A stretch of 64,000 nucleotides of DNA from an uncultured Gammaproteobacteria bacterium (GCA_964473565.1 CAYYPI010000003.1:1811-65810), one strand, 5' to 3'. Positions 20,866 through 63,895 are shown, counted from the first letter of the stretch. The notes: generated by a model from the sequence alone, not told the origin. A program made the numbers and translations.

Positions 20866-20939
20866 AGGCCCAGACCGGATTCGAACCGGTGAATAACGGT
20901 TTTGCAAACCGCAGCGTTAGACCGCTTCGCCACTGAGCC
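20866..20939 (-). tRNA. tRNA-Cys (anticodon GCA)
   Basis: Hand-folded cloverleaf. Acceptor GGCTCAG/CTGGGCC, anticodon loop TTGCAAA, T-arm CCGGTTCGAATCCGG. Confidence 0.9.
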
Positions 20940-22116: not shown

Positions 22117-22191
22117 GGTCCCTTCGTCTAGTGGTTAGGACGCCAGGTTTTCATCCTGGTAACAGGGGTTCGATTCCCCTAGGGACTACCA
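22117..22191 (+). tRNA. tRNA-Glu (anticodon UUC), CCA encoded
   Basis: GGTCCCTTCGTCTAGTGGTTAGGAC..CCAGGTTTTCATCCTGG..GGGGTTCGATTCCCC..AGGGACTACCA. Confidence 0.95.
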
Positions 22192-45501: not shown

Positions 45502-46314
45502 ATGAAAAGAAAAAAACTTAATCAAGTTCTTATATTAGCTTTATTTATATTCTTTTTAATTTTAATAACAAAAGCTAACAAGGCGGAGAAAGTAGTTTTT
45601 ATGTCAGTAGGGCAGGGTGATTCAAGTTTAATTTATACAAAAGAAAGGACAGTTTTAATAGATGGAGGCCCTGATTGGCAAGCGCTGTTAGAGATTCCTA
45701 AAGTTTTAAAGGATGAGATGATAATTAATGATCTTGTAGTTACCCATCCACATAGTGATCATTATTTTGGTTTAGCAGAGCTAATTAATAGATATAAAGT
45801 TGATAATATATATTACTATGATAAGAATAAAGGAAACGAAAGCTTTGAGTTATTCCTTAAAAATATTAAAAATAAAGAGATTAATCTCATTAATGTGAAA
45901 AGGGGTGATAAAATTAGACTTAGAAAGAATTGTTATTTGTATTTTTTATGGCCAAAACTAGAAGAGAAAAAAGTGGGTTTTGATACGAATGAATTGTCAA
46001 TTGTTAATTATTTTAGCTGTGGAAAACTAAAAATACTTTTCACAGGTGATATTTCTAAGGCTGTGGAAAAACAGTTAATAAGTATGGATAAAAGCTTAAA
46101 ATTTGATGTTTTAAAGTCTGCTCACCACGGTTCAAAAAATAGTAATTCTTGGGATTTTTTAAGTTTTTATAGGCCTCAAAAAATGATAATAAGTGTTGAA
46201 AAAGGTAATAAACATGGGCTTCCTAGTGCAGAGGTTATAAATAAGGCTAAAGCCCTTAATATAGAAGTTTATAGTTTAGCAGATAGTGAATCTTATGAAA
46301 TTTTGATAAAGTAG
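45502..46314 (+). CDS. signal-anchored metallo-beta-lactamase-fold hydrolase, ComEC C-terminal-domain type
   Basis: N-terminal TM, then VGQGDSSLIYT and THPHSDHYFG motifs as in the ComEC MBL domain. No ComEC channel domain is present. Confidence 0.75.
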   Translation: MKRKKLNQVLILALFIFFLILITKANKAEKVVFMSVGQGDSSLIYTKERTVLIDGGPDWQALLEIPKVLKDEMIINDLVVTHPHSDHYFGLAELINRYKVDNIYYYDKNKGNESFELFLKNIKNKEINLINVKRGDKIRLRKNCYLYFLWPKLEEKKVGFDTNELSIVNYFSCGKLKILFTGDISKAVEKQLISMDKSLKFDVLKSAHHGSKNSNSWDFLSFYRPQKMIISVEKGNKHGLPSAEVINKAKALNIEVYSLADSESYEILIK

Positions 46315-46324
46315 GCGCTAACTG

Positions 46325-46353
46325 TTGACAAGTATGTTTTTCTTTGCTATACT
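46325..46353 (+). promoter_or_regulatory. consensus sigma70 promoter of the orphan structured RNA
   Basis: TTGACA (46325-46330), a 17-nt spacer, then TATACT (46348-46353). Confidence 0.65.
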
Positions 46354-46358
46354 TTCTA

Positions 46359-46510
46359 GAGTTAGAAAATTAAAACTTTATAAGACCACTTGAAGCGGGT
46401 ATGGCACACGACAAGCATGGGGAGGTCATCATCTTTGGTTTCTTAGGCTCCGGCTTAAGGACACCGAGAGTTGATTTTCTTGCCTTGCCCGCTTCAGGTG
46501 GTCTTTTTTT
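46359..46510 (+). ncRNA. orphan GC-rich structured small RNA (~150 nt), class unassigned
   Basis: 16-bp closing stem GACCACTTGAAGCGGG/CCCGCTTCAGGTGGTC (46384-46399 with 46488-46503) followed by T7. Apical hairpin UUCUUAGGC-UCCG-GCUUAAGGA has a C(UNCG)G tetraloop. The core is ~53% G+C by hand count. Confidence 0.55.
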
Positions 46511-46556
46511 ATTAGTTATATTTATATATAACTTTTTTTATATCAAAGTCTTTAAT

Positions 46557-48452
46557 TTATTGGTTGTCATTACTGTCTTCATTTTCAGTACTATCTTCTG
46601 TACTTTCATCTGTTACTTGATCATCTTCATCAATAATTACTTCCTCTGTTGAGGTAGCGTTTTTCTCTTCTTCCTTTCCTATCAAACAAACCTCTTGCCA
46701 TGGTGTATAGCGAGAATAGAATCTTCTTTCTTTATCTTCTTTTTGAGTATCACTACCTTCAGGATATTTTACAGTGTAATCAAAATAGGCATCAGCTCCA
46801 TTATGTGCACTTTCAGTGCACTTTACTTTGCCTGGTTCAAGATCTTCGGTTTCAATATATTTAGTTGGAGGCGGTTCTTTTATGTTATATATTACAGGAT
46901 AAGTGGTACTGGCTTGTCTACCATCATTAGTACCCCAAAAATCAAAGTATAAATCACTTCCTTCAATACGATATTGAATCATTATATGGTTAGGGGTGTC
47001 ATTTAAAAATCTAAAGTCAGGCTTAGGATCATAGATAGTTGCATCTGTTCCAGCTGGTTCATAGTATGAAACTCTGTATGAGTGATTTCTTCTCTCAGTT
47101 ATTTCAAGTCCTGAATCTAAAGCTGTTCTAAAAACTGTAGTTCCAATTTGGCAAAGGCCACCGCCATATTCTGGCACTGTTTCATTACCCTTAATAACGA
47201 GTTCAGGTAAGTAATTGTTTGCAGCATCTATATCTCCTAGGGATTGTACTAAAGAAAACTCTTGGCCAGGTTTTATAAGCATACCATTTAAAGTATCAGC
47301 TCCCACTTGAATATTATGTCTTCTATTAGCTGGGGAACCAGCAAAATTAGAATGTCCAGTTCCGATAATTTCTTTAATTCCAAGATTTAAATTATCTGAA
47401 GTATTATAGTTAATATCTGAAACAACTAAATCTATTTCAGAGTCTTTGTTTTTGATATTTTCTTGAATAAGTTCTGTGGTTTTATTTATTTCTAAATTCA
47501 ATCCTTTTTCAGCTAGCTGAAACTCTTCTACTTTTCCATCTTTAATAACAAAGTCTGCTTTTACCGGGTCTTTGTCTATATTAGGGGCTATTTCTTTATT
47601 TAAAAATTCTTTAATTTTATTTTCATTTACTTCAATAATTATTTCTTGATTATCTAGTTTTTTAAAGTTTAACCACTTAGAAAAGTCTTCTTTATTTACT
47701 AACCACTCTCGATTTTTATGATATAAGTTAATAGGGCTTAAGCTCATTAATTCATTAGCCTCACTTATTTTATCTTCTACGTCTTGTTTGTATATTTGAG
47801 GATAGTCTGTTTTGTCTTGGAGTCGGATAGAAACGTCTTGAGCTAAATCAAGACTCTTTTTTAAATCAGAAATAGCTTGTTCATAATCTATAATCTTACC
47901 TATTTTTTCTTCCTCTATATAAATGTTATTCTCATCCTCATTAACTTCAATAATTAATTTTGCATCTTGAGCAGGGTATTCAAGCTCCTTGTATTTACTT
48001 TGCAGTAATTCTTTTATTCTTCCTTCTTCTAAGTTATATACTAGTTCAACTCTTTTCCCATTAATTAAAGTTTTAAAACTTTTAACAAGGTTCTCTACAA
48101 AAGACTTGTCTTTTCCATAGTTAATTGCATTTCTAGCCGTTTCTTTTGCATCGAAATATACTATTGGATAAGCTAGGTCAGGTTCAAATGAAGAAACTGT
48201 GGGACTAAGAGCAATTTTTTTATCTTGGTAATAAAATACCATACCTTCATTATTGTATTTTTCAACTTCTTTATTTACTAAATCTTCTATTTCAGCTGCT
48301 TCTCTATTAGAAAGATTGTAATTAGCAAAGCTTAAACCAGAAAGTGCTTTATTGGAATAACTTTTACTGTATGCAAAATAAGCAAACACAAGGCTTGCTA
48401 TTATAAGTATGAATATAATAAATTTTATTTTATGTTTAAGAAATAAATTCAT
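46557..48452 (-). CDS. VanW/YoaR-family protein, signal-anchored, with acidic C-terminal tail
   Basis: 631 aa. VanW core seen as PGQEFSLVQSLG...GGGLCQIGTTVFRTA...ERRNHSY. Confidence 0.8.
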   Translation of the reverse strand: MNLFLKHKIKFIIFILIIASLVFAYFAYSKSYSNKALSGLSFANYNLSNREAAEIEDLVNKEVEKYNNEGMVFYYQDKKIALSPTVSSFEPDLAYPIVYFDAKETARNAINYGKDKSFVENLVKSFKTLINGKRVELVYNLEEGRIKELLQSKYKELEYPAQDAKLIIEVNEDENNIYIEEEKIGKIIDYEQAISDLKKSLDLAQDVSIRLQDKTDYPQIYKQDVEDKISEANELMSLSPINLYHKNREWLVNKEDFSKWLNFKKLDNQEIIIEVNENKIKEFLNKEIAPNIDKDPVKADFVIKDGKVEEFQLAEKGLNLEINKTTELIQENIKNKDSEIDLVVSDINYNTSDNLNLGIKEIIGTGHSNFAGSPANRRHNIQVGADTLNGMLIKPGQEFSLVQSLGDIDAANNYLPELVIKGNETVPEYGGGLCQIGTTVFRTALDSGLEITERRNHSYRVSYYEPAGTDATIYDPKPDFRFLNDTPNHIMIQYRIEGSDLYFDFWGTNDGRQASTTYPVIYNIKEPPPTKYIETEDLEPGKVKCTESAHNGADAYFDYTVKYPEGSDTQKEDKERRFYSRYTPWQEVCLIGKEEEKNATSTEEVIIDEDDQVTDESTEDSTENEDSNDNQ

Positions 48453-48668
48453 TTATTTATTTTCATTGCTATTTAAAATCTCATTTAAAATTTCTTTACC
48501 TAAATTATTTTGGTCTTGATCTCCTTTAAATAATTTTATTTTTATCTCATCACCAATCTTTATATTTTCAGCTAAGTTTTCTCTTTTAACTTTTAAATTT
48601 TCTTTAGCTTGATTTTCTAGGTAGATAAAGTCTTTTTCAATACTTTTAACACTAAATTTAATTAACAT
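48453..48668 (-). CDS. small hypothetical protein
   Basis: 71 aa. Its stop codon abuts the VanW start. It may be DUF3006-like, but that assignment is weak. Confidence 0.4.
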   Translation of the reverse strand: MLIKFSVKSIEKDFIYLENQAKENLKVKRENLAENIKIGDEIKIKLFKGDQDQNNLGKEILNEILNSNENK

Positions 48669-48673
48669 ATTTT

Positions 48674-49075
48674 TTATTTTACCTTTACTTCAATTTTGTC
48701 AGCTCTTTTTAGTTTAATTAAGGTGATTGTTAAGACTCCATCTTCCAGTACAGCATCTATTTTATCTTCATTTATTTCTGTAGGGAGAATTACTGTTCTA
48801 GAAAACGGACCCCAATAACATTCTTTATAAATGCTGTTATCATCATTTAATTCTTCTGGTAAGTTTAGATCTCGATGTCCTTTAATAGTTAGCATGTCAT
48901 TATGCAAAGATATGTTTAAATCCTCAGGTTTGACGCCAGCCATAGTCGATTTAATATAGATTTTTTTATCAGTTTCGTAAACATCTATAGATAACTGTCC
49001 TTCACTGTAATCTTCGTCTAACCATTTTTCATTGATTGAAATATTTTCTTCTTGTTTTGGTTTGCTTGAATTCAT
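48674..49075 (-). CDS. Hsp20/alpha-crystallin small heat-shock protein
   Basis: 133 aa. Alpha-crystallin domain seen as LSIDVYETDKKIYIKSTMAGVKPEDLNISLHNDMLTIKG...DGVLTITL. Confidence 0.9.
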   Translation of the reverse strand: MNSSKPKQEENISINEKWLDEDYSEGQLSIDVYETDKKIYIKSTMAGVKPEDLNISLHNDMLTIKGHRDLNLPEELNDDNSIYKECYWGPFSRTVILPTEINEDKIDAVLEDGVLTITLIKLKRADKIEVKVK

Positions 49076-49117: not shown

Positions 49118-49192
49118 TGGGTTTACCCTGACTTGAACAGGGGACCTCTACGATGTCAACGTAGCGCTCTAACCAAACTGAGCTATAAACCC
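49118..49192 (-). tRNA. tRNA-Val (anticodon GAC)
   Basis: GGGTTTATAGCTCAGTTTGGTTAGAGCGCTACGTTGACATCGTAGAGGTCCCCTGTTCAAGTCAGGGTAAACCCA. Confidence 0.95.
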
Positions 49193-49281: not shown

Positions 49282-49354
49282 TGCGCCTAGATGGAATTGA
49301 ACCATCGACCCCTGCTTTATAAGAGCAGTGCTCTAACCCCTGAGCTATAGGCGC
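49282..49354 (-). tRNA. tRNA-Ile (anticodon UAU)
   Basis: GCGCCTATAGCTCAGGGGTTAGAGCACTGCTCTTATAAAGCAGGGGTCGATGGTTCAATTCCATCTAGGCGCA. The anticodon loop CTTATAA sits between the CTGCT/AGCAG stem halves. Confidence 0.9.
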
Positions 49355-63824: not shown

Positions 63825-63895
63825 TCGGGATGCCAGGAATCGAACCTGGGCTACAAGCACCCCATGCCCGCGTACTACCATTATACTACACCCCG
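63825..63895 (-). tRNA. tRNA-Pro (anticodon GGG)
   Basis: CGGGGTGTAGTATAATGGTAGTACGCGGGCATGGGGTGCTTGTAGCCCAGGTTCGATTCCTGGCATCCCGA. It has the C1-G72 pair typical of bacterial tRNA-Pro. Confidence 0.9.

What the first reader, a model, noticed from the sequence alone, without database searches (positions are those of the whole stretch)
46325..46510. Orphan GC-rich structured RNA with its own consensus promoter and terminator
Directly after the MBL gene stop lies TTGACA-17 nt-TATACT, one of the best promoter matches in the window. About 30 nt downstream begins a 120-nt element (46384-46503) whose ends form a 16-bp stem with one G-U pair, followed by seven T. The stem continues through GGCA/UGCC. 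There is then an asymmetric internal loop, with ~20 nt on the 5' side and ~6 nt on the 3' side. The apical 9-bp hairpin is capped by UCCG closed by C-G, a UNCG-type tetraloop. G+C is ~53% by hand count in a ~30% genome. The next gene is on the opposite strand, so this is not a 5' leader. The long imperfect hairpin with a large asymmetric bubble recalls 6S RNA architecture. However, I cannot match it to 6S, SRP, RNase P or tmRNA consensus sequences.
Basis: partly seen in the sequence, partly recalled or inferred. Interest (0 to 1): 0.6.

Follow-up and report, generated by a model that had tools for sequence, protein, structure and literature searches.

The report
New conserved small RNA of Patescibacteria
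The flagged element is a real, separately transcribed, rod-shaped small RNA gene; it belongs to a large RNA family found across the tiny-genome Patescibacteria (CPR) that matched no Rfam family or paper searched, and its function is unknown, but it is not a 6S or SRP RNA.

Summary
At 46384-46503(+) there is a 120-nt, 53% G+C hairpin RNA in a 30% G+C genome. It follows a TTGACA-17-TGcTATACT promoter and ends in seven U. It folds far better than shuffles (z = -8.4).

It matches none of 4227 Rfam families, even at E<=10. Related DNA shows it is a family: more than 120 loci, about 90 distinct variants, from MAGs labelled Parcubacteria, Pacebacteria and Falkowbacteria. In an 89-sequence alignment, 35 of 46 pairs show compensatory changes, and 91% of cells are paired versus 38-60% in slid controls. 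G.U cells outnumber A.C cells 631:98, which fixes the strand.

The conserved core is GGG:CCC, then AGGCA:UGCCU, then a one-sided 10-nt bulge CGACAAGCAU, then a G.U-rich GGGGA:UUUCU helix. The apical part varies freely, including an ~80-nt insertion. The long basal stem is replaced by flanking tRNAs in one lineage.

Most members have a near-consensus extended -10 promoter and a U-tail. The 6S features tested here (size, two-sided bubble) and the SRP features tested (domain IV, GNRA loop) are not met.

Best reading: an abundant stable RNA whose invariant bulge module docks a conserved partner, probably a protein. That step is inferred, not shown.

The parts
46325..46353 (+). Sigma-70-type promoter: -35 TTGACA (46325-46330), 17-nt spacer ending in TG (46345-46346, extended -10), -10 TATACT (46348-46353).
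   Evidence: 11/12 match, TG present. The promoter is conserved in close relatives. Of 86 family members, 64 have a promoter scoring at least 10/12, and 63 of those have the TG extension.
46360..46383 (+). Inferred A/U-rich 5' leader running from the predicted transcription start (about 7 nt after the -10) to the first paired base. Its length and sequence vary across the family.
   Evidence: the distance from the -10 to the stem has a median of 31.5 nt and a range of 16-54. The start site is inferred, not measured.
46384..46401 (+). 5' strand of the basal stem (GACCACUUGAAGCGGGUA). The CGGG is conserved; the rest covaries.
   Evidence: Helix 1 has 21 pairs, 16 with double changes, and 94.8% of cells paired.
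46403..46406 (+). GGCA, 5' strand of the invariant short helix. It pairs with UGCC at 46481-46484.
   Evidence: G-C, C-G and A-U are invariant in 87-89 of 89 sequences. The only change (G->A) is compensated by C->U in two tandem paralogs.
46407..46418 (+). One-sided bulge CA-CGACAAGCAU. The last 10 nt are the invariant core of the family, with no nucleotide opposite.
   Evidence: It is also intact in loci chosen by gene synteny alone, not by sequence pattern.
46419..46423 (+). GGGGA, 5' strand of the invariant wobble-rich helix. It pairs with UUUCU at 46476-46480 (G.U, G-C, G.U, G.U, A-U).
   Evidence: The pairs never vary in the pattern-selected set. In the synteny-selected L135 the G-C becomes G.U.
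46424..46475 (+). Variable, covarying distal stem and apical hairpin, with the UCCG loop at 46449-46452. A G.U plus G-C pair next to the loop is semi-conserved. Loop sequence and length are not conserved.
   Evidence: helix 3: 15 of 16 pairs show double changes. L133 carries an ~80-nt insertion here.
46476..46484 (+). UUUCUUGCC, the continuous 3' strand opposite the bulge. It pairs with both GGGGA and GGCA.
46486..46503 (+). 3' strand of the basal stem (UGCCCGCUUCAGGUGGUC).
46504..46510 (+). U-tract. Together with the basal stem it forms the intrinsic terminator of the RNA gene.
   Evidence: The U-tail is present in 68 of 89 members.

Best explanation
This is a stand-alone gene for an abundant, stable, rod-shaped small RNA: a ~120-nt hairpin plus an inferred ~25-nt leader. 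It belongs to an RNA family that matched no Rfam family or paper searched and that occurs in MAGs from several candidate groups of Patescibacteria (CPR).

Shown here:
- A near-consensus extended -10 sigma-70 promoter lies upstream.
- The RNA's own basal stem plus a U-tract has the form of an intrinsic terminator.
- The helices are maintained by compensatory changes on the + strand.
- The only strongly constrained part is a compact module near the base: GGG:CCC, a 1-nt bulge, AGGCA:UGCCU, a one-sided 10-nt bulge CGACAAGCAU, and a GGGGA:UUUCU helix with three G.U pairs.

Inferred:
- The module is the docking site of a conserved trans-acting partner, most likely a protein. That would make this the RNA subunit or decoy of a ribonucleoprotein, in the manner of 4.5S, 6S or Y RNAs.
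- The distal arm only closes the structure.
- The long basal stem mainly supplies termination and exonuclease protection. It probably also terminates the convergent gene.
For: Real RNA on the + strand:
- Fold z = -8.35 on the + strand versus -4.65 on the reverse strand.
- G.U cells outnumber A.C cells 631 to 98.

Family and structure:
- The RNA is 97% identical in a relative whose flanking MBL protein is only 71% identical.
- It is present at the same syntenic position down to 42-46% protein identity, with stems changed in a compensatory way.
- In the 89-sequence alignment, 35 of 46 pairs have double changes, and 90.7% of cells are paired versus 38-60% when partners are slid. None of 500 shuffles reached the observed values.

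Independent gene:
- A promoter scoring at least 10/12 occurs in 64 of 86 members, 63 of them with the TG extension. A U-tail occurs in 68 of 89.
- In L011 an ~85-nt form sits between tRNA-Ile and tRNA-Gly without the long stem or U-tract. It is therefore probably released by tRNA processing, as some other stable RNAs are.

Module as the functional site:
- The bulge and both flanking helices are invariant, including wobble pairs that never become Watson-Crick pairs in the 89 pattern-selected sequences. All other helices covary.
- The bulge is also intact in all 12 distinct synteny-selected loci and in the paralogs, none of which were selected by the pattern.
- The distal arm tolerates any loop and an ~80-nt insertion.

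Not coding: family lengths differ by amounts that are not multiples of 3, and the 83-aa ORF through the element runs past the terminator.

Not mobile: there are no matches in viral contigs, phages or plasmids.
Against: - No partner has been identified. Gene neighbourhoods differ between clades (VanW/DUF3006/Hsp20 in one, RNase J/DAGK/bactofilin in another), so no protein is consistently linked.
- Expression is inferred from promoter and terminator sequence only; no transcript data were available.
- The invariance of the core in the 89-sequence set is partly forced, because the search pattern required CGACAAGCATGGGG and TTTCTTGCC. The unbiased sample is only about 12 distinct loci plus paralogs.
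- An invariant single-stranded bulge would equally suit base-pairing to an invariant RNA, or ligand binding.
Confidence: 0.55

Rival explanations
1. A 6S-like RNA: a promoter-mimicking hairpin that sequesters the sigma-70 RNA polymerase holoenzyme, with the bulge acting as the open-complex template strand.
For: - It is a rod-shaped, probably abundant, stand-alone RNA with a conserved 10-13 nt unpaired 5' strand flanked by G-C-rich helices.
- No 6S RNA was detected by Rfam in 635 kb of these genomes, so that role could be vacant.
- The adjacent G.U-rich helix could melt easily.
Against: - There is no match to the 6S Rfam families even at E<=10.
- The RNA is about 120 nt, and about 85 nt in L011, versus 150-200 nt for 6S.
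- Nothing is unpaired on the 3' strand, so no non-template strand is available for sigma.
- The arm beyond the bulge varies in length and takes an ~80-nt insertion.
- The failure to detect 6S in 635 kb of fragments is uninformative.
Confidence: 0.07
2. A highly divergent SRP (4.5S) RNA, the RNA subunit bound by Ffh.
For: - The size and shape (~115-nt rod), the strong promoter and the release from a tRNA operon are 4.5S-like.
- No canonical SRP RNA was seen in 635 kb scanned by Rfam, nor by a motif regex over about 1 Mb.
Against: - There is no hit to the SRP models at E<=10.
- The apical loop is not GNRA, is not conserved, and can be replaced by an ~80-nt insertion.
- No symmetric or asymmetric loop pair lies next to the apex. 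The conserved module sits at the base of the rod instead.
- From established knowledge, the Ffh M domain recognises the same domain IV motif across all life.
- Finding no canonical SRP RNA in about 0.6 Mb of scattered fragments is expected about half the time by chance.
Confidence: 0.04
3. A trans-acting base-pairing RNA whose bulge pairs with an invariant cellular RNA. The best candidate is the 5' strand of 16S rRNA helix 34 (E. coli 1054-1065), for example during 30S assembly or ribosome silencing.
For: - The sequence ACGACAAGCAUG (A of the GGCA helix, the 10-nt bulge, first G of GGGGA) is 11/12 Watson-Crick complementary to CAUGGUUGUCGU in the 16S rRNA of two genomes that carry the RNA.
- An invariant target would explain an invariant bulge.
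- The RNA gene lies within about 4-6 kb of rRNA genes in two clades and among tRNA and aminoacyl-tRNA synthetase genes.
Against: - The duplex energy is reached by 3-7% of shuffled queries against the 16S alone, and there is a central G.G mismatch.
- Helix 34 is base-paired in mature ribosomes.
- This idea does not explain why the flanking helices and their wobble pairs are invariant too.
- A 10-nt bulge held between stacked helices can form only a short duplex.
- No other near-complementary site exists in about 1 Mb of flanking DNA.
Confidence: 0.1
4. The module is a small-molecule aptamer or a self-cleaving or otherwise catalytic motif, not a macromolecule docking site.
For: An invariant internal bulge flanked by invariant helices, next to freely varying peripheral stems, is the usual signature of aptamers and small ribozymes.
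Against: - There is no expression platform and no downstream gene on the same strand. The terminator forms regardless of the state of the bulge.
- No match to any riboswitch or ribozyme family.
- Only about 10 unpaired nucleotides are available to build a pocket.
Confidence: 0.08
5. It is only an elaborate, possibly bidirectional, intrinsic terminator or DNA palindrome between convergent genes, with no function of its own.
For: - The downstream neighbour is convergent in 76 of 83 loci (my count from the simple ORF calls listed).
- An A-rich tract precedes the stem in 57 of 86 members, so the hairpin could also terminate the opposite strand.
Against: - A dedicated consensus promoter drives it.
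- The 10-nt bulge is invariant across clades in which every stem has changed.
- G.U pairs are far more frequent than A.C pairs, so selection acts on one strand's RNA.
- The variant in the tRNA operon has no terminator role.
- Paralogs occur in tandem.
Confidence: 0.02

Closest known systems
Bacterial 4.5S / small SRP RNA (Rfam RF00169)
   Same: It is a ~115-nt single long hairpin encoded as a stand-alone gene with a strong promoter. It is retained in very small genomes. It can be released from a polycistronic stable-RNA transcript. Its conserved internal-loop module could be a protein-binding site.
   Different: It has no domain IV motif and no GNRA tetraloop. The conserved module sits near the base of the rod rather than the apex. 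There is no covariance-model similarity at all.
6S RNA (Rfam RF00013 and relatives)
   Same: It is a rod-like, probably abundant RNA with a conserved unpaired stretch flanked by G-C pairs.
   Different: It is 30-50% shorter. The bulge is one-sided rather than an open-promoter-like bubble. The distal arm is not constrained in length. No model matches.
Y RNAs / bacterial YrlA
   Same: A long stem is formed by the 5' and 3' ends, with a conserved protein-docking irregularity near the base and a variable distal part.
   Different: No Ro/TROVE gene is among the neighbours whose Pfam content was listed. There is no tRNA-like domain and no Rfam match.
Orphan widespread structured ncRNA classes (for example raiA, OLE, ROOL)
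   Same: It was recognised by G+C-rich intergenic signal, conservation and covariation. Its function is unknown, and it is restricted to particular lineages.
   Different: It is much smaller and simpler (one unbranched hairpin), restricted to Patescibacteria, and absent from Rfam 15.

Membership tests
6S RNA | Match to a 6S covariance model (RF00013 and related families) | tested here: not met
   No hit at gathering score. No hit at E<=10 on the window element or on the commonest family form in L014.
6S RNA | Length of about 150-200 nt, with two long arms flanking the centre | tested here: not met
   The hairpin is 120 nt here. Family members are about 115-127 nt, and the tRNA-flanked L011 form is about 85 nt.
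6S RNA | Large central bubble with unpaired nucleotides on both strands, mimicking an open promoter | tested here: not met
   The consensus structure has 10-13 unpaired nt on the 5' strand and none on the 3' strand.
6S RNA | Binds sigma-70 RNA polymerase holoenzyme and templates product-RNA synthesis | not testable with these tools
   This needs biochemistry.
Bacterial SRP (4.5S) RNA | Match to RF00169 or RF01854 | tested here: not met
Bacterial SRP (4.5S) RNA | Domain IV: apical GNRA tetraloop with adjacent conserved symmetric and asymmetric loops | tested here: not met
   Apical loops include UCCG, UUAG, UUCG and others of 4-7 nt. They are not conserved, and one member has an ~80-nt insertion there. 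No conserved loops lie next to the apex.
Bacterial SRP (4.5S) RNA | Is the only SRP RNA candidate in its genome, and binds Ffh | tested here: inconclusive
   No canonical SRP RNA was found in 635 kb of fragments or by a motif regex over about 1 Mb. Whole genomes could not be scanned. Ffh binding is not testable here.
Y RNA / YrlA | Rfam match and linkage to an rsr (Ro/TROVE) gene | tested here: not met
   No Rfam hit. No TROVE domain appears among the neighbours listed with Pfam content.
tmRNA / RNase P RNA / 5S rRNA / rRNA fragment | Match to the corresponding covariance model | tested here: not met
   Complete 16S, 23S and 5S genes are found separately in related contigs, so this RNA is not a detached rRNA piece.
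Simple intrinsic terminator | G+C-rich stem followed by a U-tract, with no constraint beyond pairing and no promoter of its own | tested here: not met
   The stem and U-tract are present. But there is also a dedicated promoter in 64 of 86 members, an invariant 10-nt bulge with invariant wobble pairs, and a terminator-less variant in a tRNA operon.
Proposed new family (Patescibacteria rod RNA) | AGGCA:UGCCU helix, one-sided bulge CGACAAGCAU, and GGGGA:UUUCU wobble helix, inside an unbranched covarying hairpin | tested here: met
   The window element scores 147.8 bits against the family model (built from an alignment that includes the window element) and has every core feature.

The most novel reading that the evidence does not exclude
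This RNA is an essential, phylum-specific housekeeping ribonucleoprotein RNA of Patescibacteria. It would either be a non-homologous replacement for a function that other bacteria entrust to a universal RNA (6S-like control of RNA polymerase, or SRP-like), or an rRNA-directed factor. In the second case its invariant bulge would pair with the 5' strand of 16S helix 34 during small-subunit assembly or silencing. Such a snoRNA-like principle is, to my knowledge, not described in bacteria.
Probability: 0.15. Interest if true: 0.9.

Novelty: categorically new. Interest (0 to 1): 0.72.

Why it matters
Patescibacteria (CPR) make up a large share of bacterial diversity. They have genomes of about 1 Mb, live mostly as epibionts, and have almost no described regulatory or housekeeping RNAs beyond the universal ones.

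This RNA has four notable properties:
- It is kept in such reduced genomes.
- It is driven by a near-consensus promoter.
- It is present in MAGs from several candidate groups.
- It carries a 10-nt bulge and wobble helix that do not change while everything around them does.

Together these suggest that it does something important and specific to this lineage.

The result gives a concrete, testable object: a core of about 85 nt with a defined candidate binding module. That can be used for pull-downs, structure probing and metatranscriptome mining. It could also be proposed as a new Rfam family.

The "new" label applies to the family and sequence level. Whether the mechanism is new remains unknown.

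Tried and rejected
Rfam searches:
- Whole window at gathering score.
- The element and the commonest family form at E<=10.
- Only chance-level hits appeared (Atu_C7 at 13 bits, and miRNA models).

SRP, 6S, tmRNA and RNase P were looked for in 635 kb of related contigs, and an SRP motif regex was run over about 1 Mb. None were found, but this is uninformative, because only fragments and not whole genomes could be scanned.

Coding potential: the 83-aa ORF at 46401-46652 runs through the terminator into the convergent gene. The short AUG-GGG ORF is not conserved, and family lengths differ by amounts that are not multiples of 3.

Targets of the bulge:
- No antisense site with 2 or fewer mismatches exists in about 1 Mb, apart from the RNA's own opposite strand.
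- 23S and 5S rRNA show nothing above shuffles.
- 16S helix 34 is a borderline match.
- Sense-strand resemblances to the 16S 3' end, to 23S and to 5S that I noticed by eye were judged chance-level and dropped.

Gene context gave no consistent partner. The 71-aa DUF3006-like protein is linked in one clade only.

A mobile-element or phage origin is unsupported: no match in viral contigs, phages or plasmids.

Six literature searches and checks inside three papers found no description of this RNA or its core sequence.

It was remade with a stricter threshold as A3.

Full report
**1. The observation**

- TTGACA (46325-46330), a 17-nt spacer and TATACT (46348-46353) lie ten bases after the stop of the MBL-fold gene. 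A TG extended -10 precedes the hexamer. This is the best promoter-like site in the 2-kb surroundings.
- Thirty bases further on, 46384-46503 folds into one unbranched hairpin, followed by seven T (46504-46510).
- As RNA on the + strand it folds at -67.2 kcal/mol, against -35.2 +/- 3.8 for dinucleotide shuffles (z = -8.35). The opposite strand reaches only -43.5.
- G+C is 53.3% in a window of 30.1%.
- The next gene, a VanW/PG_binding_4 protein at 46557-48452, is convergent.

One detail needs correcting. The internal loop is a purely one-sided bulge of 12 nt (CACGACAAGCAU, 46407-46418).

**2. No known family matches**

Rfam 15 (4227 models) finds only five tRNAs in the window at gathering score. 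At E<=10 on the element alone it returns only chance-level hits, and nothing from 6S, SRP, RNase P, tmRNA, Y RNA, riboswitch or ribozyme families. The same is true for the commonest form of the family.

**3. It is a family**

The flanking genes (TyrRS, ArgRS, GlyRS, MBL, VanW, Hsp20, DHH, ValRS) and the best protein matches place the window in a Patescibacteria (CPR) genome.

*Loci chosen through MBL homologs.*
- A relative whose MBL protein is 71% identical carries the RNA with only 4 differences in 127 nt, and the promoter is also conserved.
- Contigs fetched through MBL homologs down to 42-46% identity keep the order ArgRS-GlyRS-MBL-[RNA]-VanW.
- They carry versions in which the basal and distal stems have changed by compensatory substitutions, while two stretches stay identical: GGCA..CGACAAGCAUGGGGA and (GA)UUUUCUUGCC.

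*Loci chosen through VanW homologs.* I chose six further loci only through VanW homologs of 47-56% identity.
- Five of the six carry the RNA convergent to VanW.
- All five keep the bulge sequence.
- One has an extra G in the bulge and a G-C to G.U change in the wobble helix.
- One has an ~80-nt insertion in the distal arm.

*Labels.* Named sources include MAGs labelled Parcubacteria group, Candidatus Pacebacteria and Candidatus Falkowbacteria. Nothing was found in viral contigs, phages or plasmids.

**4. Structure**

The analysis used a model-based alignment of 89 sense-strand members.
- 90.7% of pair cells are standard pairs, versus 38-60% when the 3' partners are slid by 1-3 columns.
- 35 of 46 pairs show changes on both sides, and none of 500 shuffles reaches the observed values.
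- RNAalifold independently predicts the same rod.
- G.U cells outnumber A.C cells 631 to 98, so selection acts on the + strand transcript and not on a DNA palindrome.

The architecture from the base upward is:
- a covarying basal stem of about 17 bp ending in conserved CGGG:CCCG;
- a 1-nt bulge;
- AGGCA:UGCCU;
- the one-sided bulge CGACAAGCAU, with CA or UCA added in the window's clade;
- GGGGA:UUUCU, with three G.U pairs that never vary in the 89-sequence set;
- a freely covarying distal stem;
- an apical hairpin whose closing G-C and G.U pairs are semi-conserved, while its loop is not.

The invariance of the two core stretches in the 89-sequence set is partly imposed by the search pattern. 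However, the neighbouring positions outside the pattern (AGG of AGGCA, A of GGGGA) are equally invariant. The bulge is also unchanged in all synteny-selected loci and in paralogs that fail the pattern.

**5. It is a gene**
- Of 86 members with enough upstream sequence, 64 have a promoter scoring at least 10/12, and 63 of those have the TG extension.
- The distance from the -10 to the stem varies from 16 to 54 nt (median 31.5), so there is a variable A/U-rich leader.
- A U-tail follows the stem in 68 of 89 members.
- Tandem or nearby second copies occur in L023, L035, L046 and L074.
- In L011 and L102 an ~85-nt version with only a 5-6 bp basal helix lies directly between tRNA-Ile(UAU) and tRNA-Gly(UCC), with no U-tract.

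I infer from the L011 arrangement that the RNA is excised there by tRNA-processing enzymes, as some other stable RNAs are. I also infer that the long basal stem elsewhere serves mainly for termination and protection. The downstream neighbour is convergent in 76 of 83 loci, and an A-rich tract precedes the stem in 57 of 86. The hairpin therefore probably doubles as a bidirectional terminator.

**6. Context**

Neighbourhoods differ by clade.
- In the window's clade and many others, the RNA lies tail-to-tail with a VanW / 71-aa DUF3006-like / Hsp20 block.
- In the most sampled clade, it lies after RNase J and tail-to-tail with a DAGK-like gene and bactofilin.
- In that most-sampled clade a 16S gene lies about 6 kb away, and in another clade 23S-5S lies about 4.4 kb upstream.

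No protein is linked throughout the family. So context suggests only a translation and housekeeping neighbourhood, not a partner.

**7. How it probably works**

Three features together are typical of a docking site read by shape and sequence, most simply by a protein:
- an invariant bulge;
- invariant flanking helices, with wobble pairs that are never replaced by Watson-Crick pairs in the 89-sequence set;
- complete freedom elsewhere in the RNA.

The strong constitutive-looking promoter, the stable rod and the tRNA-operon variant fit an abundant housekeeping ribonucleoprotein RNA or decoy. This reading is an inference, and I put it at about 0.55 including the well-supported part (a real, new structured RNA gene family).

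The rivals, with my probabilities:
- *Base-pairing to an invariant RNA (0.10).* The sequence ACGACAAGCAUG (the 10-nt bulge plus one nucleotide of each flanking helix) is 11/12 complementary to the 5' strand of 16S helix 34 in two genomes that carry the RNA. But 3-7% of shuffles do as well, and there is a central G.G mismatch.
- *6S-like (0.07).* It fails on size, on the two-sided bubble and on the constrained arms.
- *Divergent SRP RNA (0.04).* It fails on domain IV and the GNRA loop.
- *Aptamer or ribozyme (0.08).* Not excluded.
- *Mere terminator (0.02).* Contradicted by the evidence.

**8. Novelty and verdict**

No Rfam family matched. No paper in the searchable library held the core sequence or described such an RNA in CPR bacteria.

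At the level of sequence and structure family this is new. Whether the mechanism is new cannot be said. The finding is real, robust and of above-average interest. The 6S analogy should be dropped.

Noticed in passing
window 48453-48668 (-), between Hsp20 (48674-49075) and VanW (46557-48452): A 71-aa protein sits at the same position between Hsp20 and VanW in many Patescibacteria loci. It has weak Pfam hits to CsrA, S1_2 and DUF3006, and PF11213 (DUF3006) is listed for its homologs in L133-L135. It is a small, possibly beta-barrel protein of unknown role, linked to the RNA in one clade only.
   Followed up: partly
window 45502-46314 (+): This is a stand-alone 270-aa MBL-fold protein annotated as ComEC/Rec2-like. 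Precomputed Pfam hits for its homologs include PF23023 (anti-Pycsar Apyc1). It lacks the ComEC membrane domains. In the best-sampled other clade, the gene upstream of the RNA is a different MBL-fold enzyme, RNase J.
   Followed up: partly
L011 2357-2593 (-), same arrangement in L102: A minimal ~85-nt form of the RNA lies directly between tRNA-Ile(UAU) and tRNA-Gly(UCC), with no promoter or U-tract of its own.
   Followed up: yes
L133 6560-6750 (-): This family member has an ~80-nt A/U-rich insertion in the distal arm. Its promoter, bulge module and terminator are otherwise intact.
   Followed up: yes
L023 207-462 (-); L035 8136-8394 (+); L046 (second copy about 1.3 kb from the main one); L074 8749-8864 (-): These are tandem or nearby second copies of the RNA. 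In two of them GGCA:UGCC has become GACA:UGUC, a compensated change. All of them keep the bulge.
   Followed up: partly
L026 4234-5715, L118 5202-6608, L069 7602-9084 (16S); L072 279-3511 (23S-5S): rRNA genes lie within about 4-6 kb of the RNA gene in two clades. In one clade the 16S gene is nearest, and in the other the 23S-5S pair, which is in keeping with unlinked rRNA genes in these genomes.
   Followed up: partly
L118 4917-4997 (-): A group II intron domain (RF01998, 40 bits) lies right beside a 16S gene. That 16S spans all 1533 model positions in only 1407 nt, and its 3' end looks unusual.
   Followed up: no
window 46401-46652 (+): A mechanical 83-aa ORF starts inside the RNA, runs through the terminator and overlaps the 3' end of the convergent VanW gene. 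It is not conserved in relatives, so it should not be annotated as a gene.
   Followed up: yes
window 20866-20939 (-), 22117-22188 (+), 49118-49192 (-), 49282-49354 (-), 63825-63895 (-): These five tRNA genes are the only Rfam matches in the whole 64-kb window.
   Followed up: no
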